A DNA stretch of 63,690 nucleotides, filler included, from Nemertoderma westbladi (lineage: Eukaryota; Animalia; Xenacoelomorpha), in the NCBI GenBank assembly GCA_032718475.1. It is 3 parts of 3 records of this genome, joined end to end, with 100 filler letters (N's around TTAATTAATTAA, not from the genome) between each part and the next. Parts side by side here need not be neighbours in the genome. Positions count along the whole stretch, not along the records: positions 1 to 25,711 come from JAUCBJ010007124.1; 2 more parts are not named here. The stretch is one strand, 5' to 3'. Numbering within the stretch: the stretch's first letter is position 1; every line of letters begins with the position of its first letter. The notes under the pieces were generated by a model. The model did not search any database. It saw only the letters and a list, made by a program, of their open reading frames with translations, and had not been told where the DNA came from. The translations under genes were made by a program, and so were the position numbers. Below are positions 6,352 to 24,614 of this stretch, in pieces.

Positions 6352-6672
6352 GCAGTTGGAAGAGGGACAAACTGTTAAACGCCTTATCGAAAGTTAATCA
6401 AGAAGTCTCCTTACGTATACGCACGCACCCTTACAGTAGCATATCTTGGTTGGAACTACTACAGTAATTACGATTTATAGAAATTAATTAATTTATTTTT
6501 TTTTGGGGGGGGGGGACATCCATGTCGCTATGAATTAGAATGACGACACTATAAATTACAGGACAAATTGTGTGAATATAGTTACATTATAACCTTTTTA
6601 AGAATAGGACAACACTGCAATTTTCCAGAATATCCCCCCCCCCCCCTGTTAGCCGTCCCTCCCCCCCCCCCC

Positions 6673-7182
6673 TGTTAGCGTATTCAATTCCGCTAACACA
6701 AACCCATAAAGTAAGCCGTTAAGCAATATTGGGGGCCACGAGGTTGATTACCCAATCTCGTGCCACCCCAATAAAACGGGAAGGAGAAACACACAATAAG
6801 GGTCAGGGGCCACACCCCTGACCGAGAGAGAATAGCTGGAGTGAAGGGAAACACTCCAAAGGGCGCCAACAGGGATATTAGCCAATGGGAGGGAGGCACC
6901 GGCTAGGTACAGTAACAAGGCCAACCCGTGCAATATAACCAGTTAACGGTAATCAGTTATTTCAGTTATCTCATTGTGTTGGTCGGTTTAGCTAGGATAG
7001 GACCGGAACTTTAATTACCGTTGTGTAACCACTGTGCAGACATCTATATCTATATCTATACTATTATACCGGAGGACTTTATACAGCAATCAGCATTCAT
7101 CCACCTTTTACACACACACGGCGGGAACGCGACGCGTAAATTAAAACCGGATAAACCGGGATCCTTTGTGGATCCCGTCACA
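6673..7182 (+). repeat. 5' LTR (510 bp)
   Basis: tgttagcg...ccgtcaca; matches 20869-21378 with only two differences seen by eye (aaaacggg/aaaatggg; gcattcat/gcaatcat). Confidence 0.95.
6934..6967 (+). promoter_or_regulatory. Putative LTR core promoter (TATAA plus TCAGTT initiator-like motifs)
   Basis: TATAA at 6934; TCAGTT at 6953 and 6962; candidate polyA signal ATTAAA at 7140. Confidence 0.35.
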
Positions 7183-7240
7183 GTAATTAAAGTCAATCGT
7201 CCTTAAGTAATTAAAGTCTATCGTCCTTAAGTAATTAAAG
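7183..7240 (+). promoter_or_regulatory. Atypical primer-binding site: 24-bp repeat x2.4, complementary to the LTR rather than a tRNA 3' end
   Basis: gtaattaaag at 7183, 7207, 7231; gtaattaaagt is the reverse complement of actttaattac at 7008-7018; no TGG start. Confidence 0.65.
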
Positions 7241-7276
7241 CCTAGAACTCCAGCCAGCTACCGATCTAAAGAGGAG

Positions 7277-8950
7277 ATGAGTGACGTTACGCCAACGCGG
7301 ACCCCGGAGGAAGACCCAACGATTCGCGAGGCCGTGACCAGACGGTATAGGCCCACGACGCCGGACCCATCGGTAACGGGTCATCCGGCAGATCAGGATG
7401 AAGGGGGCCGTCTGGAGCCAGAGATCGAGCCGAGAGGAGCGGGAGCCGATTTGAGAGAAGGAGAGGGCGAGAGGAACGGAGAAGAAGACGAGTCGACACG
7501 GAACGAGGGTCGACGTACCGATGTCGCCGGCCAGCCACAGGCCGAGGGCGACGAACGGCCCACCGAAACGGCGACGGTGGGGCCGACGGTACGACGCCGG
7601 ACCCGGAGAGATGGGGGAGATGTCGGTACCGATGTCGCCGGCCAGCTACAGGCCGAGGGCGACGGACGGCCCACCGGAACGGCGACGGTGGGGCCACCGG
7701 TACGACGTCGGACCCGGAGAGACGGAGGAGAGGTCGGCGACGAGGACATCGGGGTTTCTGATCGACTTCGACGGGCCTACAACGCAACCCGGAAACTACT
7801 TAAGGAGGCCAAGGAGGGGGCGAAGATAGATGAGGTAAAGTTAACAACAGGACTAGGTGAGTCGGATAGACATTTTAGTTATCTAATGCGTTTCGGGCAG
7901 AGAGAACTGGCCAAGGAGAGAGCGAGAGGGGTTGCCGAGGAACTGTGTGATTTATGGCGGTGTAGGGGTATGCAACCTAGTGCAGTGTACGTAGGGCCAT
8001 ACTTAGTCGATGCCCAGGGTATAAAATCAGTGGGTTGGAGGAGATCTGAGGAGGGTGAATCCGAGGTTGACCCCGAGGATTCGATCTCGTCAGTCGGAGG
8101 AAGTTCTGGGAAGAGGGGGAAAGTTAGTAGGTCGGGAAGGCGGAGGGAATCCGTCGTAACCGATAAGTCTGCTACATCCTCCATAAAAGAAAGACGGGTG
8201 AGAGAGATAAATGCCACGTACAATCTCGACCTGATAGCGCAAGGTCAGAGAGAGATAAATAGACGGTTAGAGGAGGGGAGAATGCAACTAGAGAAGGAAT
8301 TGGTACTGATTAGAGAAACCGGAGAGAGGGCCGAAAGGGCCGCGAAAAGCCTTAGAGAGTGTGAGGAAATAGAGAGGAGGGAACAAGAGGAGCGTGAGGC
8401 GAGACGGGAAAGTGAACGCAAAGAGCGTGAGGCGGAACGCAAGGAGCGCGAGGCGAGAGAGGAAAATGAGCGCAAGGAACGTGAGGCAAGAGAGGAAAAT
8501 GAGCGCAAGGAACGTGAGGCAAGAGAGGAAAATGAGCGCAAGGAACGTGAGGCGAGAGAGGAAAATGAGCGCAAGGAACGTGAGGCGAGGGAGGAAAGTG
8601 AGCGCAAAGAGCGTGAGGCGAGGCGAAGGGAGGGAGCTAGGAGAGAGGCGGAATTGGCCGAACAGAATGCACGGGAGGTGCGGGAGAGAATGGCAAGAGA
8701 GGTGCGTGAGCGAAAAGAATTGGAAAGACAGCAAGGCGAGCTTATAGAGTACAAAACTAGGCGTACGCGCGAACTGGAACTGGCGCGGGTGGGGGCGTCT
8801 GAGAGCGAGGCTGACTCGAAGATTTTCGAGGAGCCAAGGGCCGTGGATATATTTATTAATACCCCACTTACAGGGACCGCACGACAGACCCGAAACTGGT
8901 GTGACCGTACGGGCGGGGGGGGGGGGGGGGTAATAATAATACTACAGTAG
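7277..8950 (+). CDS. gag: Gag N-terminal extension, segment 1 (111-bp duplication, E/R coiled-coil repeats); frame shifts at G-run ~8916-8930
   Basis: ATG just after PBS; TDVAGQ...RRRTRRDGG x2; EREAREENERK repeats (33 bp); continues in another frame after the G homopolymer. Confidence 0.7.
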   Translation: MSDVTPTRTPEEDPTIREAVTRRYRPTTPDPSVTGHPADQDEGGRLEPEIEPRGAGADLREGEGERNGEEDESTRNEGRRTDVAGQPQAEGDERPTETATVGPTVRRRTRRDGGDVGTDVAGQLQAEGDGRPTGTATVGPPVRRRTRRDGGEVGDEDIGVSDRLRRAYNATRKLLKEAKEGAKIDEVKLTTGLGESDRHFSYLMRFGQRELAKERARGVAEELCDLWRCRGMQPSAVYVGPYLVDAQGIKSVGWRRSEEGESEVDPEDSISSVGGSSGKRGKVSRSGRRRESVVTDKSATSSIKERRVREINATYNLDLIAQGQREINRRLEEGRMQLEKELVLIRETGERAERAAKSLRECEEIERREQEEREARRESERKEREAERKEREAREENERKEREAREENERKEREAREENERKEREAREENERKEREAREESERKEREARRREGARREAELAEQNAREVRERMAREVRERKELERQQGELIEYKTRRTRELELARVGASESEADSKIFEEPRAVDIFINTPLTGTARQTRNWCDRTGGGGGGVIIILQ

Positions 8951-8976
8951 ACGACGTTAATATTAATGGTACCGTA

Positions 8977-9693
8977 TTGGATAATCCTAACCAAACTTAT
9001 ATTGCAGGAAATACTTTGCCTAGTAGTAGCGATTTGAATTTAAACACAAATAATCAAAATAATAATTTCAATTTAAACGTGCAAAATAATCCGAATAATA
9101 ATTTAAATTTAGAAAATAATAATAACTCAAATAATTTAAATAATGATCCAAGCCCGAATTTACAAAATAATTCAAATAGTGTAGTCGCGCAAAATAATCC
9201 AAATGGTTCTATTTCGAACGAACAAAATAATTCCGTTTCTAATATAGGTGCTATTAATGCGAACGCGTCGGACGTGTATAACCCGACAGACGGCGGCCTG
9301 GTAGGCCACGTAGTTAGTAGGCAGGAGGTGGCGGGGTTGAGTCGACCCGACGGCGGCCTGGTAGGCCACGTAGTTAGTAGGCAGGAGGTGGCGGGGTCGA
9401 GTCGAGCCGACGGCGGCCTGGTAGGCCACGTAGTTAGTAGGCAGGGGGTGGCGGGGTTGAGCCAACCCGGAGTAGGCCCGATAGGCCAAGTAGTAGTGGA
9501 GAGAGAGGCAGGGGTAAGCGAACCCAGCCGCAGTAGAAATATTGTGTCGACTGGAGAGGGGTGTAGAAGAGAAGTAAGAGGTAGCGGTGTGATATGTGGC
9601 GAAGGGGGGGGGGGGCTACAGGAGCCCCACAACGAGAAGTTGGTGGCGAGAGGGGGGGGGGGCAGAGAGTGTCCCACAGGCGTCGGCGGATAA
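8977..9693 (+). CDS. gag: Gag segment 2: Asn-rich low-complexity tract plus three 60-bp repeats
   Basis: NLNTNNQNNNFNLN...; DGGLVGHVVSRQ x3; frame open back to the G-run at ~8930; bounded by G-runs at ~9604 and ~9652. Confidence 0.6.
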   Translation: MDNPNQTYIAGNTLPSSSDLNLNTNNQNNNFNLNVQNNPNNNLNLENNNNSNNLNNDPSPNLQNNSNSVVAQNNPNGSISNEQNNSVSNIGAINANASDVYNPTDGGLVGHVVSRQEVAGLSRPDGGLVGHVVSRQEVAGSSRADGGLVGHVVSRQGVAGLSQPGVGPIGQVVVEREAGVSEPSRSRNIVSTGEGCRREVRGSGVICGEGGGGLQEPHNEKLVARGGGGRECPTGVGG

Positions 9694-11899
9694 TGCGCGG
9701 GCCGAATCAGGTAAACCGCAACACCCGGCGACGGAGAGTAATAGGGGGATTGCGAGTATCCCCAGCGGCGTGCGATCGAGCAGAGAGAGGCAGGTTGACG
9801 TCGCGAGAGGGCGGACGAAGCGTCGAGCCCGATCAGAAGAGGGAAGAAGAACAGTGGAGTTTAACCGGGAGGTCGACGAGAGATCTCACGAGCGGGAATA
9901 CTGCACTGAAAGGAGAAGAAGAGAAGACAGCAGAAGAAGTATCGCCGCGAACGACAGGAGAGTGAGGACGGATAGCGAGCCGTCGGTAGTCGAGATGGAA
10001 AGAGAGAGTCGGTGGGGTCGAACTTCGGGAGATTGCCGTCGTCCCGGAGAGACGCGACCTGACGAGACGCGTTACGCGTCGAGAGAGGGGTACACGATGT
10101 ACCGGCACGAAGACGAGAGTAGTAGAGGGGGTCGAAGAGAAACTTTCCGACGGGATATACCTACAGATCGAGAGTACGGTAGCCGCGGGGAGGATTATTC
10201 GAGAAGAATAAACTTCGATCCCGAGCAACACATACAGACTGTAGGACATACTGTAGGCCTTACTGCACATACCATAGGCCATGCTGACAGGAATAATGTA
10301 GGCGATAGGATAGCGCGGACGACGGAATTAAACCCGGAAGTCGCGGAGTACATACCGGCAGGTAGGCCAGAAGCTGATAGGCCTATACCGGTACCAGTAC
10401 AGCAGTATGACTACAGCATGCAAGGACATAACATATACCCAGGGGAGGGGGGAATTATTGCGGATAGATGCATGGGCCCCAATATATTAACATCAACCCC
10501 AGTACCAAACATACCGGTGGGGGGGGGGGGGGGACAGGGTGACATTCCCCCATCGCAATATCAACAATATACCCCGATAGGAGCAAGAACAACGAGACCC
10601 TTGGATGGAAATAGGTCATGTGACACAGAAATATGGAGGGGGCCGCTACCCCCAATGATATACCCAAGCCAAAGAAAGGCAGAAAATAGGACGGGCGGAC
10701 CACACCCAACAGGAGAAACTATACAACATCCATCGAATCCATTGGAAGCGCAGGCGATGGGGATGGCCACGTTGATCGATGCATTAAAAACAAGGATCGA
10801 ATTACCACCCGTGGAACCATTCAAATTCGATGGGAGTAGGCCGGAAGAATATCTCCAGTTTCGGCGTATGTATAGTAACGAAATACTAACAAAGAACTTG
10901 ACGCAGGCGGAGTGCCTAAAGTATCTGCAAGTATACACAGGAGGCCCAGCATACGACATCGTGAGGCAATATCAGGGCATAGAGGGCGGCTTCACGACGG
11001 CATGGCGGGCACTGGACAGGGAATACGGGCACCCGGCCAAGATCATCAGGCAGACCCTGAGAGGCATAACATCGGGTGGCCTACAGGATAATCCCGTTAG
11101 CATTAAGACATTCGCGAACAAGGTCGAGAAGGCGCTAATCGTGTTAAAGACGCTAGACGCGCCATATGAACTCAACGCGTCCAACAACATCACCACGATA
11201 GCGCAGGCACTACCGATGTGGTTGCGCAACAAGTGGAGGAAAATCGCTTTCTCCACTCGAGATAGGAAGGGTGCGGAACCGGGTTTAGAAGAAATGTCAA
11301 GCTTCTTAAACTACGAAGCTGAACTAATAACCGACCCAGTCTATAGCGAAGATAGCCTGGGAAAGGGACCGAAGACGGATTACCATAGACCGAAACCAGA
11401 GCACAATATGTCAAACGCATTACCGAAGCTCAGGCAATCACTGCCATATGCAGCAACGCAGGGGACTGCAAGTCCACAGGTAGCCGAAGGTAAGACCACA
11501 CCATGGAACGGACAGGGGAACAATAACAACACGAATAAATATAACCCCAGTACGTCCAGTAGGCCGAACCCAAACAATAAGAATAGTAGGGACTTTGGTA
11601 CAAACGCAGCTGCGATACGCAATGCACTGTATAAGGAGGGCTACGACCCAAAGAGCAAATGCCAGCTACATACAAATGCGCTTCATCAAACCATGAACTG
11701 CAGGTACTGGCAGGCGCTACCCAGGGAAGATCAGGTAGAATATGCGGCGAGGAATGAGATCTGCTCGCGATGTGTGATGAGTGGACATAGAGCTAGGCAG
11801 TGCAAGGAGACGCCGGTCAAGTTTGGTCAAAGGAGAGGCCAAACGATGGCAACGAGCACAGTAGGGGCGAGAAGAGAGGAACGGTGCTACTTGGAGTAG
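9596..11899 (+). CDS. gag: Gag segment 3: BEL/Pao capsid-like (DUF1759-type) domain and Cys/His knuckles
   Basis: ELPPVEPFKFDG..EYLQF...LKYL...A..L..EYGHP; CQLHTNALHQTMNC; CSRCVMSGHRARQC. Confidence 0.85.
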   Translation: MAKGGGGYRSPTTRSWWREGGGAESVPQASADNARAESGKPQHPATESNRGIASIPSGVRSSRERQVDVARGRTKRRARSEEGRRTVEFNREVDERSHEREYCTERRRREDSRRSIAANDRRVRTDSEPSVVEMERESRWGRTSGDCRRPGETRPDETRYASREGYTMYRHEDESSRGGRRETFRRDIPTDREYGSRGEDYSRRINFDPEQHIQTVGHTVGLTAHTIGHADRNNVGDRIARTTELNPEVAEYIPAGRPEADRPIPVPVQQYDYSMQGHNIYPGEGGIIADRCMGPNILTSTPVPNIPVGGGGGQGDIPPSQYQQYTPIGARTTRPLDGNRSCDTEIWRGPLPPMIYPSQRKAENRTGGPHPTGETIQHPSNPLEAQAMGMATLIDALKTRIELPPVEPFKFDGSRPEEYLQFRRMYSNEILTKNLTQAECLKYLQVYTGGPAYDIVRQYQGIEGGFTTAWRALDREYGHPAKIIRQTLRGITSGGLQDNPVSIKTFANKVEKALIVLKTLDAPYELNASNNITTIAQALPMWLRNKWRKIAFSTRDRKGAEPGLEEMSSFLNYEAELITDPVYSEDSLGKGPKTDYHRPKPEHNMSNALPKLRQSLPYAATQGTASPQVAEGKTTPWNGQGNNNNTNKYNPSTSSRPNPNNKNSRDFGTNAAAIRNALYKEGYDPKSKCQLHTNALHQTMNCRYWQALPREDQVEYAARNEICSRCVMSGHRARQCKETPVKFGQRRGQTMATSTVGARREERCYLE

Positions 11900-12654
11900 T
11901 ACCCGTGCGAGTGATTGGGGAAGGCAATCGATCAATAACAACATTAATGCTGGTTGATAGTGGAGCTGCCTTCACATTAATCGAAGAATGGGTGGCCGAA
12001 GAGATAGGATTGAGAACGAGGCCAAGTAGAATGGCGGTAACAACCATCTCTAGCAAAGATGAGATCCTGGAGATGAGAACAGGACGGTGCGCAATTGCAG
12101 CAGTGGCACCAGGATGCGACTATGGGGCAACCATCGACCCCATCCAAGTGATAGAGTCAATTAATATCAACGCCAGGCGGCCAACCAACATCGAGGTCGA
12201 GCAGTATAAATTCCTGGACGACATTGACTTCTCAATCCCAGACGTGGACGTTAGGAAGGTGTCCATCATAGTAGGTATGGACTGCCCAACGGCCCACGAA
12301 AGAATGCAAACGGTCTTCGGCGAAGACAAGCAGAGTGACCCGGTGGCCATATTAACACCATTCGGGTGGACGCTGAGTGGTCCAATCAAGAGTAAGATAC
12401 CATTTAGGATGTCGGAGACATCAGGATGCATGTTCGCGGGAGCAATGCAGGAAATGGGTGACGAGGGAGCAGAGGAGCAGCTTAAAAGACTGCTCAGACA
12501 GTATTTCGAGGGACTGAAAGAAACTGGGGTCGGGACCTCGGTAGAAGACAAACAGGCTTTAAAGAGCGTGGAGGAATCGATGACTATGCGACGAGGGGTG
12601 GTATACAATAGGAATGGTATGGAAACTACCGAAGATACCGCTACCCGACAATAG
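11800..12654 (+). CDS. pol: Aspartic protease segment of BEL/Pao polyprotein (frameshifted)
   Basis: LLGVVPV...LMLVDSGAAFTLI; IIVGMD; TPFGWTLSGP. Confidence 0.85.
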   Translation: MQGDAGQVWSKERPNDGNEHSRGEKRGTVLLGVVPVRVIGEGNRSITTLMLVDSGAAFTLIEEWVAEEIGLRTRPSRMAVTTISSKDEILEMRTGRCAIAAVAPGCDYGATIDPIQVIESININARRPTNIEVEQYKFLDDIDFSIPDVDVRKVSIIVGMDCPTAHERMQTVFGEDKQSDPVAILTPFGWTLSGPIKSKIPFRMSETSGCMFAGAMQEMGDEGAEEQLKRLLRQYFEGLKETGVGTSVEDKQALKSVEESMTMRRGVVYNRNGMETTEDTATRQ

Positions 12655-14080
12655 GGGGATGGTACTCACGAGACTCCGCAAGCTGAAACAAACACTAAAA
12701 CGGAGCCCCAAGAAGAATGAGTACATCCACAGAACGATTAAGAAGTACGTCGAGAAAGGATGGGCCGTGGAGTTACCGGTCGACGAGCCGAACACGGACA
12801 GGATATATTACCTGCCACTACACGTGGCTTTAGACCCAAAGAAAGGTAAACTACGGATGGTAGTCGACGCATCAGCAAAGACAGACGGAAAATGCTTAAA
12901 CGATTACCTGTTAGAAGGCCCAAACATATACAACTCGGGCATAGAGGTCCTACTTAGATTTAGAAATGGGAAACACGCCTTCACGTGTGACATAGAAGGC
13001 ATGTTCAACCAAGTCCGTGTAATGGAAGAAGATAGCGACAGTCAGCGCTTCTTATGGTATAACGGCGAGGAAGAACCGCCGATAATACCAGCATATAAGA
13101 TGGTAGTACAAAACATGGGGGCCAAGTCGTCTTCATTTACGACGACTATGGCAGTGAGAGACACAGTGAAGGGGAAGGAAGATAGATACAGCAGTAGGGC
13201 CGTCGATATGATTCGACGCGGCTTCTACGTAGACGACGGAATGGAGTCTGGAAATACGGTTAAGGAGATACTGGACACAGGGCGCGAGGTTCGCGACATC
13301 CTAAAGGGATCCGGCTTTAACCTGACCAAATTCCAATCCAGTTCGGAAGAATTTATCAAGGCGATAGAGGACAGGAGACCAGAATCGACCATGGATAATC
13401 CCACAACAGTCAAAGGGCAGGACATGGCGATTAAGAGAACAGAATCTCAACAGAAGGCATTGGGAATCGTGTGGGATAGAGAGACAGACGCACTGAAGTA
13501 TCAGCTGAGCCAGGAGGGCGCAGGCATCCACACGAAGAGGGGCTATGTATCGTATATAGCAAGGATATACGATCCCCTAGGCCTAGCATCCCCATTATTA
13601 GTCACGGGGAAACAGATACTCAAGAGAGTATACAAATTGAAGGATGAGTGGGACGTAGAGGTACCAGAGGAAATCAAGAAACAGTGGAGCAAGTGGACAA
13701 GAGACTTGGAGAAGATGGGAACATACAACATGCCTCGAGTGTATTTCCCGGATGGGAACATGACGAGTCTGGACCTATACATGTTCTCCGATGCGTCGTT
13801 GGAGGCGTACGGAGCGGCACTCTATTTAGTACAACGAGAGGGGGCTCACAAGCCCAGACTGGCCTTTAGCAAAGCTAAGTCAACGCCGTCAGATTCAGCA
13901 TCAGTTCCCAAACTAGAATTGACAGCTGCCAGACTAGGAGTTAGGGCCACGGCCTACCTACTGGATACTATTCCCAACATAGTGGAGACACACTACTGGA
14001 CGGATTCCATGGTAGTGCTTGGTTGGCTACATAACGAAAGGACGAGATACCCTATATTCGTCGCGAATAGGGTGATATAG
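12614..14080 (+). CDS. pol: Reverse transcriptase and RNase H (first copy) segment
   Basis: YYLPLH, KLRMVVDAS, CLND.L..GP, CDIEGMF, QRFLW, FYVDD, LGIVWD, YDPLG, FSDAS..AYGA, WTDS. Confidence 0.92.
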   Translation: MVWKLPKIPLPDNRGMVLTRLRKLKQTLKRSPKKNEYIHRTIKKYVEKGWAVELPVDEPNTDRIYYLPLHVALDPKKGKLRMVVDASAKTDGKCLNDYLLEGPNIYNSGIEVLLRFRNGKHAFTCDIEGMFNQVRVMEEDSDSQRFLWYNGEEEPPIIPAYKMVVQNMGAKSSSFTTTMAVRDTVKGKEDRYSSRAVDMIRRGFYVDDGMESGNTVKEILDTGREVRDILKGSGFNLTKFQSSSEEFIKAIEDRRPESTMDNPTTVKGQDMAIKRTESQQKALGIVWDRETDALKYQLSQEGAGIHTKRGYVSYIARIYDPLGLASPLLVTGKQILKRVYKLKDEWDVEVPEEIKKQWSKWTRDLEKMGTYNMPRVYFPDGNMTSLDLYMFSDASLEAYGAALYLVQREGAHKPRLAFSKAKSTPSDSASVPKLELTAARLGVRATAYLLDTIPNIVETHYWTDSMVVLGWLHNERTRYPIFVANRVI

Positions 14081-14785
14081 AATAGATAAGGGCGACTACA
14101 GAATTGGAAAGGTGGCATTACTGCCCAACGGACGAGAACCCAGCAGACTTGTTATCAAGGGGCATGGCACGCCACACTTTCTTAAAAAAGGAAGGATTGT
14201 GGCAACACGGGCCGCAGTTTCTGAGCGACAAAGAGGCCTGGCCGCCGATGAGAAAGGTGGACCCGGGCTCAGGAGAGGTAGTGTCAGAAGGAGAAGAGGG
14301 AGACTCAGAGGGAGAAGAGATAAGCCCAGACTAGCCTTTAGTAAAGCAAAGTCAACGCCGCCATATTCAGCATCAGTTCCCAAGTTAGAATTGACAGCTG
14401 CGAGACTAGGAGTTAGAGCCACAGCCTACTTAGTGGATACTATTCCCAACATAGTGGAGACACACTACTGGACGGACTCCATGGTAGTGCTTGGTTGGCT
14501 ACATAACGAAAGGACGAGATACCCGATATTCGTCGCAAATAGAGTGGACGAAATAAGGGCGACCACAGAACTGGAAAGGTGGCACTACTGCCCAACAGAC
14601 GAGAACCCAGCGGACTTGCTGTCGAGGGGCGTAGAACGCCACACTTTCCTGAAGAAGGAAGTATTGTGGCAGCATGGGCCACAATTTCTGAGCGATAAGG
14701 AGGCCTGGCCGCCGATGAGAAGGGTGGACCCGGGCTCAGAAGTGGTATCAGAAGGAGAAGAGGGAGATTCAGAGGGAGAAGAGAT
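13850..14785 (+). repeat. Tandem duplication of the RNase H C-terminal region (13850-14321 / 14322-14785)
   Basis: Both copies start aagcccagact and end gagggagaagagat; copy 1 has a frameshift/stop near 14075-14090. Confidence 0.9.
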
Positions 14786-15302
14786 ATACTCCCAGATGGT
14801 GAGGGAGATTAGGGACGTGCAACCAGGACGAGAACTGTGCGATAATCCGACAGATAAACTCCTCAGTTACAGTTCTAGTTGGTATAAGACCAAGAAACTA
14901 GTGGCGTACTGGAGAGCCTTCGGGAATTTCCTTGCGGGAGTTGGTAAGGACAAGAAGACCAGGACAACCATAGATCTGGAAGGAGCGGCCAAGGCAGTGA
15001 TCCGCTATGAACAACGGAAGAACTACGGCGACGAGATGGAACGCGTCGGTAACCAACAGCACCTCCGATGGGACAGCGAGCTGATTACGCTGTCGCCACA
15101 ACTCAATGACGACGGGATTCTAGTAATGAATTCTAGGGTGGGATACAACAACAGCATAGTCGTACCACCGAAACCCATCATCATTCCTACAGGATCGCCG
15201 ATAGTCCATCAGATTATATGGGACTCCCACAAATCCATATTGCATGGGGGCACCAACCGAACCCTCACAGAGATAGGAGGACCTATTGGGTCAAACAATT
15301 GA
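14322..15302 (+). CDS. pol: RNase H (second copy), linker and start of integrase zinc-binding domain
   Basis: Within ORF 14112-15302: KPRLAFSKAK, SVPKLEL, FVANRVDEI, ENPADLLSRG, LWQHGPQFL, H...LHGG. Confidence 0.88.
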   Translation, partial: KPRLAFSKAKSTPPYSASVPKLELTAARLGVRATAYLVDTIPNIVETHYWTDSMVVLGWLHNERTRYPIFVANRVDEIRATTELERWHYCPTDENPADLLSRGVERHTFLKKEVLWQHGPQFLSDKEAWPPMRRVDPGSEVVSEGEEGDSEGEEIYSQMVREIRDVQPGRELCDNPTDKLLSYSSSWYKTKKLVAYWRAFGNFLAGVGKDKKTRTTIDLEGAAKAVIRYEQRKNYGDEMERVGNQQHLRWDSELITLSPQLNDDGILVMNSRVGYNNSIVVPPKPIIIPTGSPIVHQIIWDSHKSILHGGTNRTLTEIGGPIGSNN

Positions 15303-16334
15303 GGAAGAAGGTAAAAGCGGTAGTGGGGCAGTGCCAGACATGCCGACGAGCGAAGAAGGAGCGAGCGGTACAGGAGATGGCGCCACTACCGGCGAGTAGG
15401 GTAAGACAGCACGACCCGCCATTTACGCATTGCGGTGTGGACATGTTCGGGCCGATAAAGATCAAAGTGATGCGACACACGGAGAAACGCTACGGCATTA
15501 TCTTCGTATGCAACAACACACGGGCGGTAGGGATAGAACTCGCCCAAGATGCAACCGCATCAGCATTCATTAATGCCTTAGAAAGGTTTAGGGACCGCAA
15601 AGGTGGGACGATCGCAGTGATATACAGCGACAACGGCACCAACTTTGTGGGCGCAGAGAATGAGATGGCAGAGGCATTGGACATCTTGGAGGGAGAAGAA
15701 GTCAGGGCAGCCATGAGAAGACGACAAGTAAAGTGGGAGAGGAGGACGCCGTATGCACCACATACACTAGGATGCGTCGAGAGACTGGTGGGCAGTTCAA
15801 AGCGTCTCATGACGAAGCTAATGAACACCCACATGGTCACCGAGGACGTCTTGAGAACGGTGCTTGCGAAGTGCGAGGGTATCATTAATAGTAGACCGCT
15901 ATATACGGAGAATGATGACCCTGAGTCATTAGATGTGCTGACGCCCAGCCATTTTCTAATGGAAAGGCCAGCGACCATCGATATGCGGGGTGTAGACCCA
16001 GATGACATACACTCCCGCCAGAGTTGGAAGGTCGCTAAAGCGATAAGCGCAGAATACTGGAGAAGGTGGGTTGAGGAATACCTACCCACGCTTCACAAAA
16101 GAAGCAAGTGGAGGAAGTCGAATAGAGAGAGGAGAGGGAGATCTCGTAATCGTCACGGATGATACTATCATCAACAACCAGTGGCGGTTGGCGAGAGTTG
16201 TAGGCACTTACTCCGATGAGGACGGAAGAGTCCGATCGGTAGAAGTGCGGATAGGGGGCAAGATAGGTGTGAAAGACAGAAAAACCTACAGGAGAGCTGT
16301 AGGGAAATGCTGTCTATTAGAAGGGGCACCTTAG
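15218..16334 (+). CDS. pol: Integrase core and C-terminal (DUF5641-type) region, frameshifted near 16130
   Basis: YWV...CQTC; MAPLP..RV; GVDMFGP; SDNGTNF; VERLV; INSRPL; LTPSHFL; WRRWVEEYL; GDLVIV...WRLARVV..DGRVRSVEV. Confidence 0.92.
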
Positions 16335-16470
16335 ATCGTTTGTTAGGAAGGATTTAGTCGTCCAAGTTTTGGACTGAGGGGGGTTGGGATTGAGGGTGAG
16401 ACGCCCTTCCCACACATAAAATAAAAATAAAATAATATAAAAATTAGAGTTAGTCAGTTAGTTAGGAGTT

Positions 16471-17117
16471 AGTTAGAAGGTACGTAGTACCTAGAGTTAG
16501 TTAGTTAGTCAGTTAGAAGGTACGTAGTACCTAGAGTTAGTTAGTTAGTCAGTTAGAAGGTACGTAGTACCTAGAGTTAGTTAGTTAGTCAGTTAGAAGG
16601 TACGTAGTACCTAGAGTTAGTTAGTTAGTCAGTTAGAAGGTACGTAGTACCTAGAGTTAGTTAGTTAGTCAGTTAGAAGGTACGTAGTACCTAGAGTTAG
16701 TTAGTTAGTCAGTTAGAAGGTACGTAGTACCTAGAGTTAGTTAGTTAGTTAGTTAGAAGGTACGTAGTACCGAGTGTTAGGAGTCAGTTAGTTAGAGGTG
16801 TTAGAGAAGTAGTAAGAGGGTACGTAGTACCGGTGGTTAGTAGAGTTAGAGGTTAGTAAGAGGGTACGTAGTACCGGTTAGTAAGAGTAGAGTTGGAAGT
16901 TAGTAAGAGGGTATGTAGTACCGATAGTTAGTGGAGTAGGTAGAGGGTACGTAGTACCGTTAGTTAGAGAGTAGTAAGAGGGTACGTAGTACCATTAGTG
17001 GAGTTAGAGTAAGAGTTAGAGGGTACGTAGTACCGCTAGTTAGGGAGAGAGAGTAAGAGTTAGAGGGTACGTAGTACCGATAGTTAGTTGGAGGTTAGTA
17101 AGAGGGTACGTAGTACC
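16471..17117 (+). repeat. Array of 16 GGTAC-GTA-GTACC hairpins: 8 in near-perfect 40-bp units, 8 with variable purine-rich spacers
   Basis: Unit agttagaaggtacgtagtacctagagttagttagttagtc from 16471; further cores at ~16819, 16863, 16910, 16946, 16981, 17022, 17066, 17105. Confidence 0.9.
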
Positions 17118-17556
17118 GATTAGTAAGAGATAGAGGTGGAAGGGTATATATAGTATAGATATTAGTCAGTAGTTAGTAGCGAGAGGGGGGCATATGAGTA
17201 CAGTTGGATAGATCGTGTAGGCCACGCGACATATACTGCTGTACTGCACAGGCCCATAGAGTAGGTCAGAATGTGGATTACGAAATAGAATAATCCATAA
17301 ACAGTAAAGTAGTAGAATTAAGTTAAATTAAAAATAAATAGAATAAATAGGGCTAAAAATTACAAATTATGGTAACAGAAGGGAAATTATTCTGGAACAT
17401 AATTAAAGCAACGGACAGAAATTGCAAATAGGGTACATTTGTTAGCTACAAAATTAGGTAATAGAAATTTAGGCTAAAAGGCGTAGTTAGATAGAAAATA
17501 GGCCATTCTCGAACTGTGCAGACCATCAGAAACTTATCACTCATCTGTATTGCACC

Positions 17557-20163
17557 TTGGTAAGGCACCACCTTACAGGTGAGCTAGTGAGAGTGTTCGG
17601 AATGGCGGGAAAACTGATCAGAAAGAGAAAGGTGGAACAAGGAGGAAAGGAGATACTGGTGGATTTCACCAAGAGGCATCCGGAAGAGAAGACGAGAGGA
17701 TACTACGAGAGGTTGGAAAAGGGTCACGCGGCACGAGCGCTGCAGGACCACTTCCGGGAGATGCACGAACAGCGGCTGGTCGGGACCTACGGGACGCCGT
17801 TGCTGGACAACGCGATCTTCCAACACTTCCACTACGTGGTGAAAGGGGACGAGGCGAAGTTCGGGATTCCGAAGTACCTGAGGGAGTCGCCGAAGAAGGA
17901 TTGGAAGAGGTTTATAGAGTCTGTCAACAGGGGAGGATATATGATCCTAGACGACGAGGGAACCGTGGAAGACGAGGAGGGTTCGAGACGAGGATCAGCG
18001 GGGTCGGCCAGGACCATACTCCTACATTTGGCCGCGCCAAATGGGGACATTTTCTTATTCGATCTAGGAACGTATGGGAAAAAGGACGGGCCGAAATTAA
18101 ACCGGTTGCCGAAAGCGGTGCAAGTCCTGGTAAGAGAGAAGTCGACGACGAAGGTGGGATCGGCGATTCGCGAGGATGCGGAGAGAATCATCGGTCCGGA
18201 CACCACCAACCTCCTGGATATGCAGAAGGTCTTCATGGCTATGACGGCACCAGATGGGTTGGGAGTAGTCGGGAACACAGGCCAATGCGGGGCGGTGGCA
18301 ATGGGCCAGCTATTGGGGCTCGTATGCCACAAACCGATGGACTGGGGGAAGTTCAGGGAGGAATACGGAGCAGAACTAGCGAACTCGCTAAAGTGGGGAG
18401 CGAGACCGGGAAGGCAAGAGGTGTATCAATTCCTCAGAGGAGCGATAAAGGTATATCAGAAGCGATATATCCTGCAGGAAGATTGGATGATGATGAGTTT
18501 GCTTAACTTATTCATGACCGTGGTTATCGAGAGGGAACCAGCGGCATTTCTGTTATCGGGATCACCCCTAAGCTACAGGAGAGCCTTTAAGACGGCCTTC
18601 GACGGTCTGGTAGACCACCCGGGGCTGAAGGGCGAGTCGGTGTATTACAACAGCCGACATCTGATAGACAGGGAGATAGATACGCCGTATCAGAGATGGG
18701 AGCAGCTAGAGACAGATAGACGAGAGGCAAAGCGACTGGAAGAAGTCGCTAGACGGGAAAGGATAGAAGCAGAGGAGAGGGAAGAGGAGGCCAGGACGCA
18801 GAGTTACGGCTTCGAGGAACAGGCAGGCTTAGACGAACTTCGTTGGACTTCATCAGGGAGTTCGGGGGAGTCTCTAGGGCGAGAACTGGGATGGACGGTG
18901 GGATCGCCGAAACAGTCAACGTCGGGGTTGCAAGCGATGCCCATACCAGCGGGCGCCGAAGGCGACCAACCGCCAAGGAAGTTAAGGGAGCTAGAGGGAT
19001 GGAGAGCTACGGGCGAGAGCCAAGGCGGGAAGGGACATAGTGGATCCATCGGGATACCGGGGTTGGAGCCACTGCCAGAGGAGGATGAAGACGACGACGA
19101 GGTCGGAGAGATGCCGCCCATCGGGAGGATAGGCCACTCGGACACGGACTGGGTTGGCGGGAGGGTGGTGACGGCCAGTGGGGCGAGGGCCTTCTGGGAT
19201 AGACCCGGCAAGCGGGCCTGGGTGCACAAGGAGCCGGCGATGGATTTCGCGGGGAGCACTATCAGGTTGGGTGAGCAACCGGGGACGGCACCACGGGTAG
19301 TATTCGGGGAGACGATGCCCGAGAGGGGCGAGGAGATCGACGTAGACAGGGACACTAACGTGCAGAAGTTCGCCTACCAGCAACTCCACAGACCGCGGAG
19401 ATCGCTTGGGACGAAAGACGATGTGGGGCGGGAGACATTGGTACTCGGTTGCGATTACTGTGGGAGACAGACCCACCAGGAAAGGAGCTGTTTGTACCGA
19501 TTCCAAAAGGGGACCTTTTGTCTCTACTGCCGCGAGTCGAGCCACAGGATGGGGGCGTGTCCACGGTTGCATAACCGATGTCCGAAGTGTAACTTCCGGG
19601 GACACTACGGACGCCAGTGCGACTGGATGGATGATGAAGAGAAGTTCAGAACCTTCAGGAGTGGGCGACTCGGGGCCATGACGCGGCAACGCATGAAGGC
19701 TCAGGAGTTCAAGTGGGGTTTCTTCCTTATCAATCAGGAGGCTCACTTGGAAATCATAAAGCGGAGGTTACCGTTTACCTATCAAGAGGTAGCAACGGCG
19801 GCGTCGTATGCCGGGGTGATAAATACACAAAGGTATTTGGACAGGTGGACGCCACAGAATCGAGGGGAGTTTAGGGATTTCCTGGCGGAGCACGTGCCGC
19901 GGGCAATGAAGATGATCTTATGGGACGCCACCAGGGGGAGACAACAGGGCCACTCGGAGGGGCCACCCGCGAAGCGATATCGGGAGCTGATAACACCAGC
20001 ACCCAAGGAGCCAACGACCGGGATCAGCAAGGAGGTGGCGGCGAGGGTCCGAAGACAGAAAACGGATCCCAGAGGAGCGGTAGTGACCAGGAAACGACCC
20101 AGGGAGGAGGACGGCAAAGGGAAAGACTTGAGGTGGTTCCCAAAGTCAGGGGGGATAAACTGA
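17557..20163 (+). CDS. Extra ORF of the BEL/Pao element: DEDDy-like 3'-5' exonuclease + acidic linker + 3 CCHC zinc knuckles + basic tail (868 aa)
   Basis: ExoI-like MILDDEG (17941); LLHLA..DIFLFDL; LP.AV..LV....TKVGSAIRED (ExoII-like); LLDMQ; LG..CHK; ExoIII-like YILQED; CDYCGRQTHQERSC, CLYCRESSHRMGAC, CPKCNFRGHYGRQC; uninterrupted; first ATG 17602, frame open from 17491. Confidence 0.8.
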   Translation: MVRHHLTGELVRVFGMAGKLIRKRKVEQGGKEILVDFTKRHPEEKTRGYYERLEKGHAARALQDHFREMHEQRLVGTYGTPLLDNAIFQHFHYVVKGDEAKFGIPKYLRESPKKDWKRFIESVNRGGYMILDDEGTVEDEEGSRRGSAGSARTILLHLAAPNGDIFLFDLGTYGKKDGPKLNRLPKAVQVLVREKSTTKVGSAIREDAERIIGPDTTNLLDMQKVFMAMTAPDGLGVVGNTGQCGAVAMGQLLGLVCHKPMDWGKFREEYGAELANSLKWGARPGRQEVYQFLRGAIKVYQKRYILQEDWMMMSLLNLFMTVVIEREPAAFLLSGSPLSYRRAFKTAFDGLVDHPGLKGESVYYNSRHLIDREIDTPYQRWEQLETDRREAKRLEEVARRERIEAEEREEEARTQSYGFEEQAGLDELRWTSSGSSGESLGRELGWTVGSPKQSTSGLQAMPIPAGAEGDQPPRKLRELEGWRATGESQGGKGHSGSIGIPGLEPLPEEDEDDDEVGEMPPIGRIGHSDTDWVGGRVVTASGARAFWDRPGKRAWVHKEPAMDFAGSTIRLGEQPGTAPRVVFGETMPERGEEIDVDRDTNVQKFAYQQLHRPRRSLGTKDDVGRETLVLGCDYCGRQTHQERSCLYRFQKGTFCLYCRESSHRMGACPRLHNRCPKCNFRGHYGRQCDWMDDEEKFRTFRSGRLGAMTRQRMKAQEFKWGFFLINQEAHLEIIKRRLPFTYQEVATAASYAGVINTQRYLDRWTPQNRGEFRDFLAEHVPRAMKMILWDATRGRQQGHSEGPPAKRYRELITPAPKEPTTGISKEVAARVRRQKTDPRGAVVTRKRPREEDGKGKDLRWFPKSGGIN

Positions 20164-20830
20164 GACTTCGATGTGGTACGCCTGGAAGGCGCCACGTGAG
20201 ACGTGCGAACTATTAAGTACAAATTCAAAATGATGCAAATAATTAAATAAGTGCAATTGTATGTACGTACGTAGTAATCAGTAGTTTAGTTATGAAATAT
20301 ACGTTCGAAGTAAGTACTATAGTCATTCAACCTTTCTCAATTAGCTACTGGGACTGGGGGGCTAACTGACTATGGTACTATGGACGAGACACTAGACGAT
20401 TTCACACTTCTTGAGTGCGACGGCACAGGAGGGGGGGTGAGATTCGTCAGAAGGGATGAGGTAGTCAAAGAGGGGTCGAGTAAAGGTGATAGTGCGGAGT
20501 GCGGAGAGAGTGCGAATGCAATTCAAGTGTGTGGGAGGAATAGGAGGCTGAGTGAGGGACAGGGAAGTCCGAGAGTTAGAGCGATAGTGAGGAGAAGTAG
20601 AGGAGAGTCAGGGTGAGAACAGTGTGGAGTTAAAGTGGCAAAAGTGTTGGGGAAACAAAAGTCGTGTGAGAGGAGCGCACGATCGGCCCGACATGGGACG
20701 CCAGGCGAACCGGGTGGCGATATCATACCCATAGGGAGCGGCCTGGAAAGCCGGCTCCGAGAGAAAATAGTTCCACCCCACACCCGATACTAGATCGGGA
20801 TCCAGCGGAATTGTAGCGCACTTTAGGAGG

Positions 20831-20868
20831 ATGCTATCTTCTCACCGGGAAGATAGCATGGGGGGGAG
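20831..20868 (+). promoter_or_regulatory. Perfect 11-bp hairpin followed by the polypurine tract
   Basis: atgctatcttc-tcaccgg-gaagatagcat (20831-20859), then gggggggag abutting the 3' LTR. Confidence 0.8.
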
Positions 20869-21378
20869 TGTTAGCGTATTCAATTCCGCTAACACAAACC
20901 CATAAAGTAAGCCGTTAAGCAATATTGGGGGCCACGAGGTTGATTACCCAATCTCGTGCCACCCCAATAAAATGGGAAGGAGAAACACACAATAAGGGTC
21001 AGGGGCCACACCCCTGACCGAGAGAGAATAGCTGGAGTGAAGGGAAACACTCCAAAGGGCGCCAACAGGGATATTAGCCAATGGGAGGGAGGCACCGGCT
21101 AGGTACAGTAACAAGGCCAACCCGTGCAATATAACCAGTTAACGGTAATCAGTTATTTCAGTTATCTCATTGTGTTGGTCGGTTTAGCTAGGATAGGACC
21201 GGAACTTTAATTACCGTTGTGTAACCACTGTGCAGACATCTATATCTATATCTATACTATTATACCGGAGGACTTTATACAGCAATCAGCAATCATCCAC
21301 CTTTTACACACACACGGCGGGAACGCGACGCGTAAATTAAAACCGGATAAACCGGGATCCTTTGTGGATCCCGTCACA
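20869..21378 (+). repeat. 3' LTR (510 bp)
   Basis: Near-identical to 6673-7182; followed by poly-C. Confidence 0.95.
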
Positions 21379-24300
21379 CCCCCCCCCCCCCCCCCCCCCC
21401 CCCAGTGCTAAGTGTGTGCCTTGCATGAATATAAATTTAAATATACATTAAACAGTTAAAGAAACATGAAATAATCAAAAATAACCGTATGCAAAACCGT
21501 TTGCAAATTCATCTGTTCATGCAAAACCTGACATAAATCAAAATATGTAATATGTAGCCTGTATAGGTCAATATTTATAATATAACAAATACAGACATAT
21601 TGATTTAAAGCATAAAACTCAGACGGAACAGGTTACTAAGCCAATACAATAGTGTAGGCGTAGGCCTACACGTAGGGTTGATTGTGATAGCCTACTGATA
21701 ACAGGATAATATTAAATGCAAACAAAAGTGTTATGTACAGACCATACTGTAGGGCCTACAGTTGTAGTTTGTTGTATTATACTGTACACCGGTAGGTGTA
21801 CATATAAGCCCGTCTAAATTAAATACTTTAGGCCTATTTAAGACAGCCAACAATAAAGTAAAAACAATTCTCGAAATTAATTACACAGCAACTACATCAA
21901 CAGCACCGGTACGTACCGCCTCACACGTTAAACTTATTATTTCCTACAATAGGTAAGAACTAAGAACTGAACTACAGTATGCTGAATAGGCGTCATTAAA
22001 AAAATAATAAATACTGTATGATAAAAAGTGAAATAAACATAATATAACACAAATAATAACACAAATAATGTCATATCAAAACAACTGGATGCAGCATATA
22101 TAATTTCGATTATTTCGACTTCCATATAATATGTAGGCCTAGTCACCAAGTCATTTTATTTTTGAAATTCACACACTTTGCACCAAATTTGTGCCCTTGC
22201 CAAAATCCAAACCTTTCTTTATCCGCCAGTGCTGCGACTCTTACAGTACACGTTAGTGGGGCATCGCGCAGTAGGTGACGTCCCATGGCTTGAGCAAGTT
22301 CAAACTATTTCGATTTGATCTGGAATCAATAGCTCGAGAGGTATTTGCCAGCAACTTTCAAAAATATTGGAACTTTTTCTATAGTATGTCCATACAATAT
22401 TGGGTTGATAATGGTTATAATCTTCAAAAGTTATTTACGAATGAATTTTTATTTCAGACAGACAGACGGACATGAAATTTTCCCCTACTTACTAATTATA
22501 ATTGTGCGCTAAGGCTCGCCCTGACTGCGTGGCTCGCCCCACAGCAGAACACTATCACTGTAGGCCTATTTGTTTTTATGTGTTTGTATATCATTATCGT
22601 TGTTCCTGTTTATATGGCATTTATTTAACTAGTGTGGCGCCTTTCGATGGCTGATTTAGACCATATTTAATTTATATTTCTTTAAGGGGAAATACGAATA
22701 AAATACACTAAATAAACTAACGATGTTTCATTGAGGATTAAGAAAACAGAAACTTCTGAATATTTGAAGAAAACTAAATTACTGTATTATAGGTAAATTC
22801 TGATTTGTTTGTACAAAATGTATTTAATTCACAGTAGTTTATTTATTTTTTCAACATAATTTAGTTTATTTTGTTACTGTTTTCTTAATCCCCAAACAAC
22901 CTATACCACCTAAACATTATAATTTGGTTTATTTTTTTGTGTATATTATACTGTTCAATTTATTTTAGACATTACTCATTAGGCCCATTCTCACCAAAAT
23001 TGGCCAAACGGGTGTCCGAGGCCATAACTTCTGTTTATGCCGGTTCTAGGAAGTGGTGGATGGCTTTGAAGAAAGCTGCTGCTGCTGAAAAGTAGATTAT
23101 GTACAATTAATTTAAGCTCAAACAGACATCATACCCGCAGCAGAACATAATACGACCACAAAAATGATATTTTCAATGTCCGGGGTCCAATAGGGGTCTA
23201 ATAGAACAAACTGTGATAAAATTCCAACACTATACATACAGTACATGTAGGTCATATCCAGTAAACCCGAAGCATTATTAGAAAGCTGGATAAATGGAGA
23301 TTCTTTTTCAGGAGTATTTGTATGCATACAATGTCGTGTCAAATTCAATTCAAGTGTCGTCCATCTCCATTTAACATCGTATCCGACACTTTTCTTATTT
23401 TTATGTTCGACCCTGTAATGGTGCTGATTTTATTTTAACTTTTTTAAGAGTAATCCTAAAAGTAAATATTCATATAAAATTTTACCAGGATAACCAGACC
23501 ATGTTAAAAAAAAACATGTAATCTGAACATGTAAAACATGTAAATGTAAAATAAACCATGTAATCGTCTTCTAAGTAGACCAAGGTTTATGTACTGTAAC
23601 AATCAATTTGCCCGGTCCCTGTAGTGGTTAGACAGGCCAGCTACTGTATTTGAAAATGATAGAATTACAGATAAGAGTTAAGATAGTGCCAGAGTCGTAT
23701 TTCAACGCGCGTTCTAGAGGTGTATAAAATATGTAGGTTAGCCACACTGAAATTATCTCAGACAAGACTGTAGTCAATCACTGTATCCTCCCTGTACAGT
23801 TGTATTGGCGTCTGCCACTCACTGTGATAATGTATGGATCTGGGATGATTACAGTGCCGGACAGTCCGGACTGTTCATGTTCACGTTCACCAATGTATGT
23901 ACAGTAATATCTATGTTTAATATAATAAATGTATATCTTAATCTTTCACTATTCAAAATATAATTATAGGCGGAGATTATTATATATTTACCTAGAAATG
24001 AATGCATTACAAGCCGGACAAATCATTACAGGGAAGGATCGAGATAATGATCTATTTTGCCTAAATGTTAAGCATTACAGGCCGGAACAATTCATTACAG
24101 GGCAGACTCGTTATTTTAAATAAAAAATAATTTTTTCAACGGCTCAAAAGTGTTTGTCCATGGCAGCATGGTACGGTCCCCATGAAATTCGCCTGACATC
24201 AAGAGCTTTTAGAAAATATGGGTTTACTATATTCTGGTGCAATTTTTTTGAAAATACTTTAATAGCCTTTAATAGAATTCAACTCACTAAATAGGTGCAG

Positions 24301-24614
24301 CAACGCAGCCAATTGAAGTTATGTTGATATAATCCCAGTAGTTGGTTTAGTATGGTTTACTGAGTTGGATTTCGTTGGGTAAGTTTTACTATTAACAAAC
24401 TATGGTGTATGAGCGGGAAATTTGAAAATGTTAAACCCCAATCGCTGGCATCTGTTTTTTGTTAATACTGTAATACAGTACCGGTACCTAATTCTGTAAT
24501 TAGTTTACTAGGCTACCTACTGACCTACCATACATTCTGACATTAGTTTATTAATAGGGCCTAGTTACCCTACCACTACAGAAAGGGGATTCACCCCATA
24601 TCCGCTATCTGGAC

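What the first reader, a model, noticed from the sequence alone, without database searches (positions are those of the whole stretch)
7008..7240. No tRNA primer site: the PBS is complementary to the element's own LTR (candidate self-priming BEL/Pao) and is triplicated
Seen: the 5' LTR ends ...gtcaCA at 7182 and is followed directly by GTAATTAAAGT, with no TGG. This 11-mer is the perfect reverse complement of ACTTTAATTAC at 7008-7018 (3' LTR copy 21204-21214). An extra aggac/gtcct pairing extends it across an internal loop. The geometry places the 3' end of the LTR-derived strand at the U5 edge, as a minus-strand primer requires. The site repeats at 7183, 7207 and 7231. Known: Tf1/sushi-type gypsy elements self-prime via an 11-nt PBS pairing to their own transcript 5' end; BEL/Pao elements normally use tRNA PBSs. 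Inference: independent self-priming in a BEL lineage.
Basis: partly seen in the sequence, partly recalled or inferred. Interest (0 to 1): 0.88.

Follow-up and report, generated by a model that had tools for sequence, protein, structure and literature searches.

The report
Self-priming BEL/Pao element, intron lost
A young jumping gene lacks the usual tRNA landing site and instead carries 11 letters matching its own terminal repeat; in many relatives those letters match only after an intron is spliced out, so the group likely starts copying itself with its own spliced RNA, and this copy probably lost the intron.

Summary
Observation confirmed. A 14.7-kb BEL/Pao element (510-bp LTRs, 2 differences) has no TGG after the 5' LTR; 7183-7193 is the exact reverse complement of LTR 7008-7018 (6 of 20,000 shuffles). 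The third copy has 10 of 11 bases. Covariation exists, with a twist: in metagenomic relatives the PBS matches the exon-exon junction of a GT-AG intron inside the LTR (7 of 13 boundary-defined families versus 0 of 182 cross pairs; 16 of 48 further loci versus 11 of 500; 21 different 10-mers in 25 loci). Two families show both the intron-bearing and the exactly spliced LTR. These elements form one clade apart from TGG elements; the window element, a long branch, probably nests in it (AU p=0.046). So it likely self-primes and has lost the intron: neither an independent origin nor Tf1 +1 geometry is indicated. The triplication is private (0 of 25 relatives). No RNA, host tRNAs or sister copies were available. 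Ten literature searches found no report. This scan noted the same mechanism before in other genomes (three notes, read after my tests).

The parts
6673..7182 (+). 5' LTR, 510 bp, TG...CA; no intron with a strong donor and acceptor
   Evidence: 0 strict GT-AG junction candidates
6934..6967 (+). TATAA (6934) and initiator-like TCAGT (6953, 6962); predicted transcription start near 6964 (inferred from recalled promoter spacing, not mapped)
6999..7003 (+). arm of a possible second helix with 7199-7203 or 7223-7227; not significant alone
7008..7018 (+). predicted self-primer segment, ending in AC; likely the spliced exon-exon junction of a lost intron
7137..7151 (+). competing partner of the primer segment inside the LTR; holds a poly(A)-signal-like ATTAAA at 7140
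7157..7177 (+). 8-bp hairpin just inside the LTR end
   Evidence: minimum-energy and centroid structures
7183..7193 (+). primer-binding site, copy 1, directly after the LTR's CA; begins with GT, not TGG
7182..7240 (+). 24-bp tandem array, 2.5 units; PBS copies at 7183 (11/11), 7207 (11/11) and 7231 (10/11)
7235..8950 (+). ORF, repetitive and charged, no Pfam family; probably the N-terminal part of gag
9593..11899 (+). gag part with DUF1759
   Evidence: E 1e-10
11797..12654 (+). aspartic protease
   Evidence: E 2.5e-6
12584..14080 (+). reverse transcriptase and RNase H (Peptidase_A17 family)
   Evidence: E 2e-41
13850..14786 (+). internal tandem duplication of about 470 bp, copies 89% alike
15137..16162 (+). 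integrase (H2C2, rve, DUF5641)
16456..17187 (+). tandem repeats (40-44 bp units) between pol and the extra ORF
17491..20163 (+). extra 890-aa ORF: possible 3'-5' exonuclease domain (lead only) and three CCHC-like knuckles
   Evidence: no homologues found
20860..20868 (+). polypurine tract
20869..21378 (+). 3' LTR; primer segment copy at 21204-21214; ends at CA followed by poly-C, with no PBS letters

Best explanation
This BEL/Pao retrotransposon likely starts reverse transcription with a piece of its own LTR transcript instead of a host tRNA, and it is probably an intron-lost member of a clade whose primer is predicted to be built by splicing. Steps. (1) Shown in DNA: the 11 nt after the 5' LTR pair exactly with LTR 7008-7018, and the segment's 3' end lies at the LTR edge. 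(2) Shown in DNA of relatives: the same pairing holds with different letters, but only across the joint left by removing a GT-AG intron from the LTR. (3) Inferred: transcription starts upstream of the segment (near 6964 here), and in relatives the host spliceosome removes the intron from the 5' copy. (4) Inferred by analogy with Tf1: the RNA folds back and is cut just after the conserved AC, probably by the element's RNase H, giving a 3' OH. The primer would carry a 5' tail, unlike Tf1's 11-mer. (5) Inferred: DNA synthesis runs only back to the cut, so everything upstream of it, intron included, is copied from the 3' LTR transcript. An unspliced 3' copy preserves the intron; a spliced one yields intron-less LTRs at both ends, the state seen here. 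(6) Inferred: the PBS is re-copied from the primer in each cycle, which keeps the two matched. Copy 1 of the PBS was used for this insertion, since the 3' LTR ends cleanly at CA; copies 2 and 3 are a private duplication with no shown role.
For: Exact 11-nt match at offset 0, 6 of 20,000 shuffles. Families whose LTR end is fixed by the repeat boundary: 7 of 13 match a strong-site splice junction over 11-15 nt, versus 0 of 182 cross-family pairs at 10 nt or more. Of the other 6, two match with weaker sites (11 and 10 nt; relaxed null 11 of 182), one matches contiguously in an intron-less LTR (10 nt; null 1 of 182), two have TGG sites and no match, and one had a wrong boundary and shows TGG further on. 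Further loci: 16 of 48 versus 11 of 500. All loci, relaxed sites: 31 of 64 testable loci, 25 of 47 families, versus 74 of 1500. In 25 retained loci perfect pairing averages 11.6 nt spliced versus 6.7 unspliced, there are 21 different PBS 10-mers, and the donor is GTAAGT in 15. Two families show both forms, with exact loss of 536 and 117 nt. All 10 non-TGG matches, and the window's, start with GT although that was not imposed there. Junction-type elements form one clade against TGG elements (SH-aLRT 98; 99). The mixture-model tree puts the window element inside that clade, and forcing it out gives AU p=0.046.
Against: No RNA evidence of any kind: start site, splicing, cleavage and the RNA-DNA joint are untested. 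No second copy of this family was available (no genome; none found), so an intron-bearing parent is not shown. The element is a very long branch (36-38% identity to its nearest relatives); FastTree and LG+G4 trees place it outside or unresolved, and the AU result is borderline. With the predicted start at 6964 the segment pairs more often inside the LTR (0.63) than with PBS copies 1 and 2 (0.25, 0.10), and the region's fold is not unusual (z -1.57). Most families were first seen by eye, so that test is not blind. The relatives are metagenome contigs of repeats and may be chimeric; the two 'both forms' cases could join different copies. Host tRNAs could not be scanned. The element's own gag-pol is in several frames, so this copy cannot be shown to be autonomous.
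Confidence: 0.62

Rival explanations
1. The element self-primes, but its lineage never had the intron: it is an independent origin or the intron-less ancestral state.
For: Both LTRs are intron-less, with 0 strict junction candidates. FastTree and LG+G4 trees leave it outside the junction clade or unresolved. It also differs in size and in its extra ORF, which none of 79 relatives shares.
Against: The mixture model nests it in the clade at support 99; AU p=0.046 against forcing it out. It shares the clade's GT start, offset 0 (10 of 25) and 11-nt length. Exact intron loss is seen in two families, and one more family is intron-less inside the clade.
Confidence: 0.15
2. The primer is element-derived but supplied in trans: a separate short spliced RNA from a solo or 3' LTR, or from the second packaged genome, anneals to the PBS.
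For: All the DNA evidence shows complementarity, not which molecule pairs. In cis the segment has a competing partner.
Against: Cis fold-back is the mechanism reported for Tf1 (PMC7175516, passage). Pairing in cis is favoured when the 5' tail is short (0.88 from 6999, 0.70 from 7008).
Confidence: 0.1
3. The pairing is real but serves structure (packaging, dimer formation, control of splicing or polyadenylation), and the primer is something else.
For: The competing arm at 7137-7151 covers the ATTAAA signal. A poly(A)-like hexamer follows the acceptor within 200 nt in 21 of 25 relatives. Fungal GalEa elements replace the PBS with a hairpin of unknown role (PMC5445492, passages).
Against: The helix always ends 0-4 nt from the LTR's CA, with the polarity of a primer and a fixed AC end, and these elements have no other PBS. 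Perfect Watson-Crick matching to a spliced joint is what re-copying of a primer would give.
Confidence: 0.08
4. A host tRNA fragment (for example a tRNA-Lys half) primes, and the LTR match is incidental.
For: An 11-nt half-tRNA-Lys PBS printed for fungal copia elements (PMC5445492) resembles the site: 8 of 11 at 7209, 7 of 11 at 7185. The host's tRNAs were not available (0 tRNA genes in the window).
Against: The match to the element's own LTR is perfect and the tRNA-like match is not. 21 different PBS 10-mers in 25 relatives cannot be served by one or two tRNAs. Rfam finds nothing tRNA-like in the element at E up to 1 (a weak test for short fragments).
Confidence: 0.05

Closest known systems
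Tf1/Tf2/Tj1 and the Tf1/sushi group (Ty3/gypsy), self-primed reverse transcription
   Same: About 11-nt PBS next to the 5' LTR, complementary to the element's own LTR transcript; no tRNA (PMC7175516 and PMC4600332, passages).
   Different: Different superfamily. In Tf1 the primer is bases 1-11 of the RNA and is contiguous in DNA. Here it is predicted to lie about 45 nt into the transcript, and in relatives it is split by a spliceosomal intron.
Plant Tcn1 (gypsy) and TAR/Houba (copia) predicted self-primers
   Same: The same prediction rule (10 bp or more complementary to the LTR, starting 0-5 bp after it; PMC6317226, passages) is met here.
   Different: Other superfamilies; the passages I saw mention no intron in the primer.
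Canonical Belpaoviridae (BEL/Pao)
   Same: Domain set and order gag-PR-RT-RH-IN, DUF1759, Peptidase_A17, DUF5641, LTR length, polypurine tract.
   Different: ICTV gives an 18-nt PBS for the 3' end of tRNA-Arg or tRNA-Gly and a size of 4.2-10 kb (PMC8742986, whole text). This element has no such site and is 14.7 kb.
Fungal GalEa copia elements with a conserved hairpin site
   Same: A clade that has lost the tRNA PBS and has a conserved self-pairing at its place (PMC5445492, passages).
   Different: There the pairing is local and the authors found no LTR complement; here the partner is in the LTR.
DEDDy-exonuclease ORF3 of bdelloid Juno and Vesta elements
   Same: Extra ORF after pol with a possible 3'-5' exonuclease domain (PMC5408684, passages).
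   Different: Those are not BEL/Pao. The exonuclease call here is only a lead, and none of 79 relatives has the ORF, so it is not needed for the clade's priming.

Membership tests
BEL/Pao (Belpaoviridae) | LTRs flanking gag and PR-RT-RH-IN with BEL/Pao-specific domains | tested here: met
   DUF1759, Peptidase_A17 and DUF5641 above cut-off, in this order; all top homologues are Pao-type
BEL/Pao (Belpaoviridae) | 18-nt PBS for a host tRNA 3' end (ICTV) | tested here: not met
   No TGG until 7413. Membership rests on the proteins; this feature departs from the family description.
BEL/Pao (Belpaoviridae) | Size 4.2-10 kb | tested here: not met
   6673-21378, 14.7 kb
Sailor lineage (Sinbad, Sparrow, Surcouf) of BEL/Pao | Clusters with named reference elements | not testable with these tools
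   No named references were held. Aquatic hosts of the nearest proteins (sea urchin, anemone, coral, fish, barnacle, tunicate) fit, as a lead only.
Tf1/sushi self-priming group | Ty3/gypsy chromovirus pol | tested here: not met
Tf1/sushi self-priming group | PBS of about 11 nt complementary to own LTR, adjacent to the 5' LTR | tested here: met
Tf1/sushi self-priming group | [quoted passage not shown] | tested here: inconclusive
   Motifs predict a start near 6964. Relatives show no fixed TATA spacing (6 of 25 have a TATA-like motif, 36-129 nt before the donor). No RNA data.
Tf1/sushi self-priming group | Cleavage by RNase H releases the primer | not testable with these tools
   needs biochemistry
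Junction-PBS BEL/Pao clade (defined here from relatives) | PBS starts with GT 0-4 nt after CA and pairs 10-15 nt with own LTR | tested here: met
Junction-PBS BEL/Pao clade (defined here from relatives) | GT-AG intron splits the primer segment | tested here: not met
   Both LTRs are contiguous; intron-less copies also occur inside the clade
Junction-PBS BEL/Pao clade (defined here from relatives) | Falls in the clade on a pol tree | tested here: inconclusive
   Inside under the mixture model (AU p=0.046); outside or unresolved under simpler models
Half-tRNA priming (copia type) | PBS matches an internal tRNA segment ending in the anticodon stem | not testable with these tools
   No host tRNAs; one published 11-nt motif matches 7-8 of 11
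DEDDy 3'-5' exonuclease | Fold and catalytic acidic residues | tested here: inconclusive
   Atlas 0.90 with 154 of 256 shared features; no Pfam hit; model pLDDT 36.5, not searched

The most novel reading that the evidence does not exclude
A large, widespread clade of animal BEL/Pao retrotransposons has abandoned tRNA priming and uses the host spliceosome to assemble its own reverse-transcription primer, while keeping the intron in its DNA by copying it from the unspliced 3' LTR. Elements like this one have escaped the splicing step through exact intron loss and carry the primer ready-made.
Probability: 0.65. Interest if true: 0.9.

Novelty: new variant of a known kind. Interest (0 to 1): 0.78.

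Why it matters
Priming in BEL/Pao, the third LTR superfamily of animals, is assumed rather than shown (ICTV: 'poorly understood', tRNA-primed). A primer that exists only after splicing would be a new link between RNA processing and reverse transcription. It would break the rule that the packaged genome of an LTR element is unspliced, and it would take these elements out of reach of tRNA-fragment defences. It also explains why PBS finders miss these elements. The claim is directly testable in existing RNA data from fish, sea urchin or anemone, whose proteins fall inside the clade. This intron-less copy is the natural control: it asks whether splicing is required or only supplies the sequence.

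Tried and rejected
No host genome and no read data, so start site, splicing and sister copies were not examined. Searches for close relatives found none: viral contigs, metagenome contigs with the single protein, genome contigs (two bacterial 20-nt chance matches); the alignment query failed on genome contigs. The first permissive junction scan gave many chance hits and was replaced by scans with nulls. Dropped before the 25-locus counts: L015 and L039 (hits look spurious) and four near-duplicates (L020, L024, L051, L079) out of 31. For L033 and L048, picked a different acceptor of equal match. L033 was left out of the concatenated trees; L080 (same contig as L079) was left out of the trees and the scans. 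A micro-exon model (start 4-7 nt before the donor, restoring Tf1 geometry) fits one family's TATA spacing only; a second helix further into exon 1 is seen in 8 of 25 loci at q<=0.05, so I rejected it as a general rule. The extra ORF as primer-trimming nuclease: no homologue in 79 relatives, none in the protein search, unusable model; the deeper protein search and a second Atlas look did not complete. A role for the triplication: 0 of 25 relatives. The test of 'window plus TGG group' did not finish. Four primary Tf1 papers were not held.

Full report
1. The observation. Self-comparison gives one long direct repeat, 6673-7182 and 20869-21378, 510 bp, TG...CA, with 2 differences, so the insertion is young. 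Pfam finds DUF1759, an aspartic protease, RT with Peptidase_A17, integrase and DUF5641 in that order: a BEL/Pao element of 14.7 kb. Its gag-pol lies in several frames, with breaks near 8.9, 9.6, 11.8, 12.6, 14.1, 15.2 and 16.1 kb; two lie at long G runs, so some breaks may be read errors. The 11 nt after the 5' LTR (7183-7193) are the exact reverse complement of 7008-7018, and the first TGG is at 7413. Six of 20,000 shuffled LTRs hold the 11-mer. Of 13,656 internal positions, only the PBS copies and one AT-rich stretch reach 11 nt. The 24-bp array has 2.5 units and its third PBS copy is 10 of 11. The aggac/gtcct extension is matched by 13-21% of shuffles.

2. Relatives. No host genome or reads were available. 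In those whose LTR end is fixed by the repeat boundary, most have no TGG after the LTR, and the LTR partner of the PBS starts right after a pyrimidine tract and AG. Adding the bases before an upstream GT donor completes the match: the PBS is the reverse complement of a spliced exon-exon joint.

3. Tests. Thirteen boundary-defined families, strong splice sites only (0-23 candidate joints per LTR): 7 match over 11-15 nt, and 0 of 182 cross-family pairs reach 10. Two more match with weaker sites (11 and 10 nt; relaxed null 11 of 182). One intron-less 200-bp LTR matches contiguously (10 nt; null 1 of 182). Two have TGG sites and no match. One boundary was wrong, and that family shows TGG. Most of these families had been seen by eye first, four LTRs were taken as a 600-nt fallback, and one was the intron-bearing sister contig. 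A second set of 48 loci gave 16 with 10 nt or more, against 11 of 500 cross pairs; one of the 16 is probably chance. A unified relaxed scan with the GT/AC end imposed gave 31 of 64 testable loci (25 of 47 families) against 74 of 1500. Many negatives are contigs that lack the LTR. In 25 retained loci, pairing is 11.6 nt spliced versus 6.7 unspliced (3 reach 10 unspliced), with 4-7 nt from exon 1 and 3-11 from exon 2, offsets 0-4, donor GTAAGT in 15, and 21 different PBS 10-mers. Two families show both LTR forms with exact removal of 536 and 117 nt from GT to AG. These may be different copies joined by assembly; either way both forms exist as DNA.

4. Where the window element sits. On RT-RH, connector and integrase (57 rows, LG+G4), 25 junction-type rows form one clade against 4 TGG rows (support 98). 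It includes proteins from sea urchin, coral, hydroid, tunicate, barnacle and fish; the window element is a long branch at an unresolved base (similar). With a site-mixture model on 33 of those rows it nests inside the clade (99), with L007, L061 and L040 (97), and forcing it out costs 12.5 log units, AU p=0.046. The root rests on lepidopteran elements. The placement is likely, not settled. Its PBS follows the clade's pattern (GT start, offset 0, 11 nt), but both its LTRs are contiguous at the primer segment and hold no strict intron. The simplest reading is exact intron loss.

5. Mechanism. Shown: complementarity, polarity, covariation, dependence on a GT-AG joint in relatives, and exact intron loss. 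Inferred: a start upstream of the segment (TATAA 6934, TCAGT 6962; spacing rule recalled); fold-back; a cut after the AC, by analogy with Tf1, where RNase H cuts between bases 11 and 12 (PMC7175516, passage); and re-copying of the PBS from the primer (recalled from retroviral replication). Because first-strand DNA would stop at the cut, the intron is inherited from the 3' LTR transcript, and splicing of that copy gives the intron-less state. A poly(A)-like hexamer follows the acceptor in 21 of 25 relatives (no null computed), which would place the joint in the transcribed R region. Against: with a start at 6964 the segment prefers an arm inside the LTR (0.63 versus 0.35 for PBS copies 1 and 2), although a shorter 5' tail reverses this (0.88). 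The 3' LTR ends at CA with no PBS letters, so priming for this insertion began at copy 1. No relative repeats its PBS (0 of 25). The array begins at the LTR end and stops at the end of the PBS match, which hints at an error during strand transfer (inference).

6. What is known. ICTV describes an 18-nt tRNA PBS for the family (PMC8742986, whole text). Self-priming is described for Tf1/sushi and predicted for Tcn1 and TAR (PMC7175516, PMC4600332, PMC6317226; passages). Term look-ups in four BEL/Pao surveys found no 'PBS' in any (PMC3118150, PMC554778, PMC6238403, PMC8556966) and no relevant 'intron' or 'primer' passage. I also saw passages of PMC3601003, PMC5445492, PMC5408684 and PMC5443660. 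Ten library searches (listings only unless named above) showed no report of self-priming or of an LTR intron in BEL/Pao. Subscription journals, Repbase reports, GyDB and all supplements were not seen and could hold a remark. Three earlier AI notes of this scan describe the same splice-junction primer in other genomes. I read them; they agree but are not independent evidence. No notes exist for this genome or sequence.

7. Verdict. The feature is real. Self-priming in some form is about 0.87 likely; the full reading, an intron-lost member of a splice-primed clade priming in cis, about 0.62. It works like Tf1 but is not a member of that group. New variant of a known kind; interest 0.78.

Noticed in passing
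window 6634-6672 and 21379-21403: The element sits in a poly-C tract, so the target duplication cannot be read; a 10-nt piece resembling the LTR start lies between two C runs at about 6648-6657. Assembly artefact or a failed integration end.
   Followed up: no
window 13850-14786: Tandem duplication of about 470 bp in the RNase H region with copies only 89% alike, though the LTRs are 99.6% alike; suggests template switching between two diverged family members.
   Followed up: partly
window 17491-20163: Intact 890-aa extra ORF after pol with a possible 3'-5' exonuclease domain and three CCHC-like knuckles; no homologue found.
   Followed up: partly
window 7003-7030 with 7125-7151: Imperfect inverted repeat within the LTR that can hide both the primer segment and ATTAAA; a possible switch.
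   Followed up: partly
window 33296-37395, 27817-29173, 25812-26014: Satellites of 38 bp (108 copies) and 53 bp (25 copies) and a perfect ATGGG run of 40 copies.
   Followed up: no
window 24558-25466, 46045-47097, 55291-57132: An ankyrin-repeat ORF and two further reverse-transcriptase ORFs, probably LINE-type.
   Followed up: no
L069 about 130-190: Short repeated units just before gag in a relative within the junction clade; no PBS match was called, but it may be another repeated site.
   Followed up: no
L009, L029, L040: Junction-type sites that read TGG by accident of the spacer and could be mis-annotated as tRNA sites.
   Followed up: partly
L013 1069-1081: A 13-nt junction match whose primer would end in AT rather than AC, an exception to the rule.
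   Followed up: no
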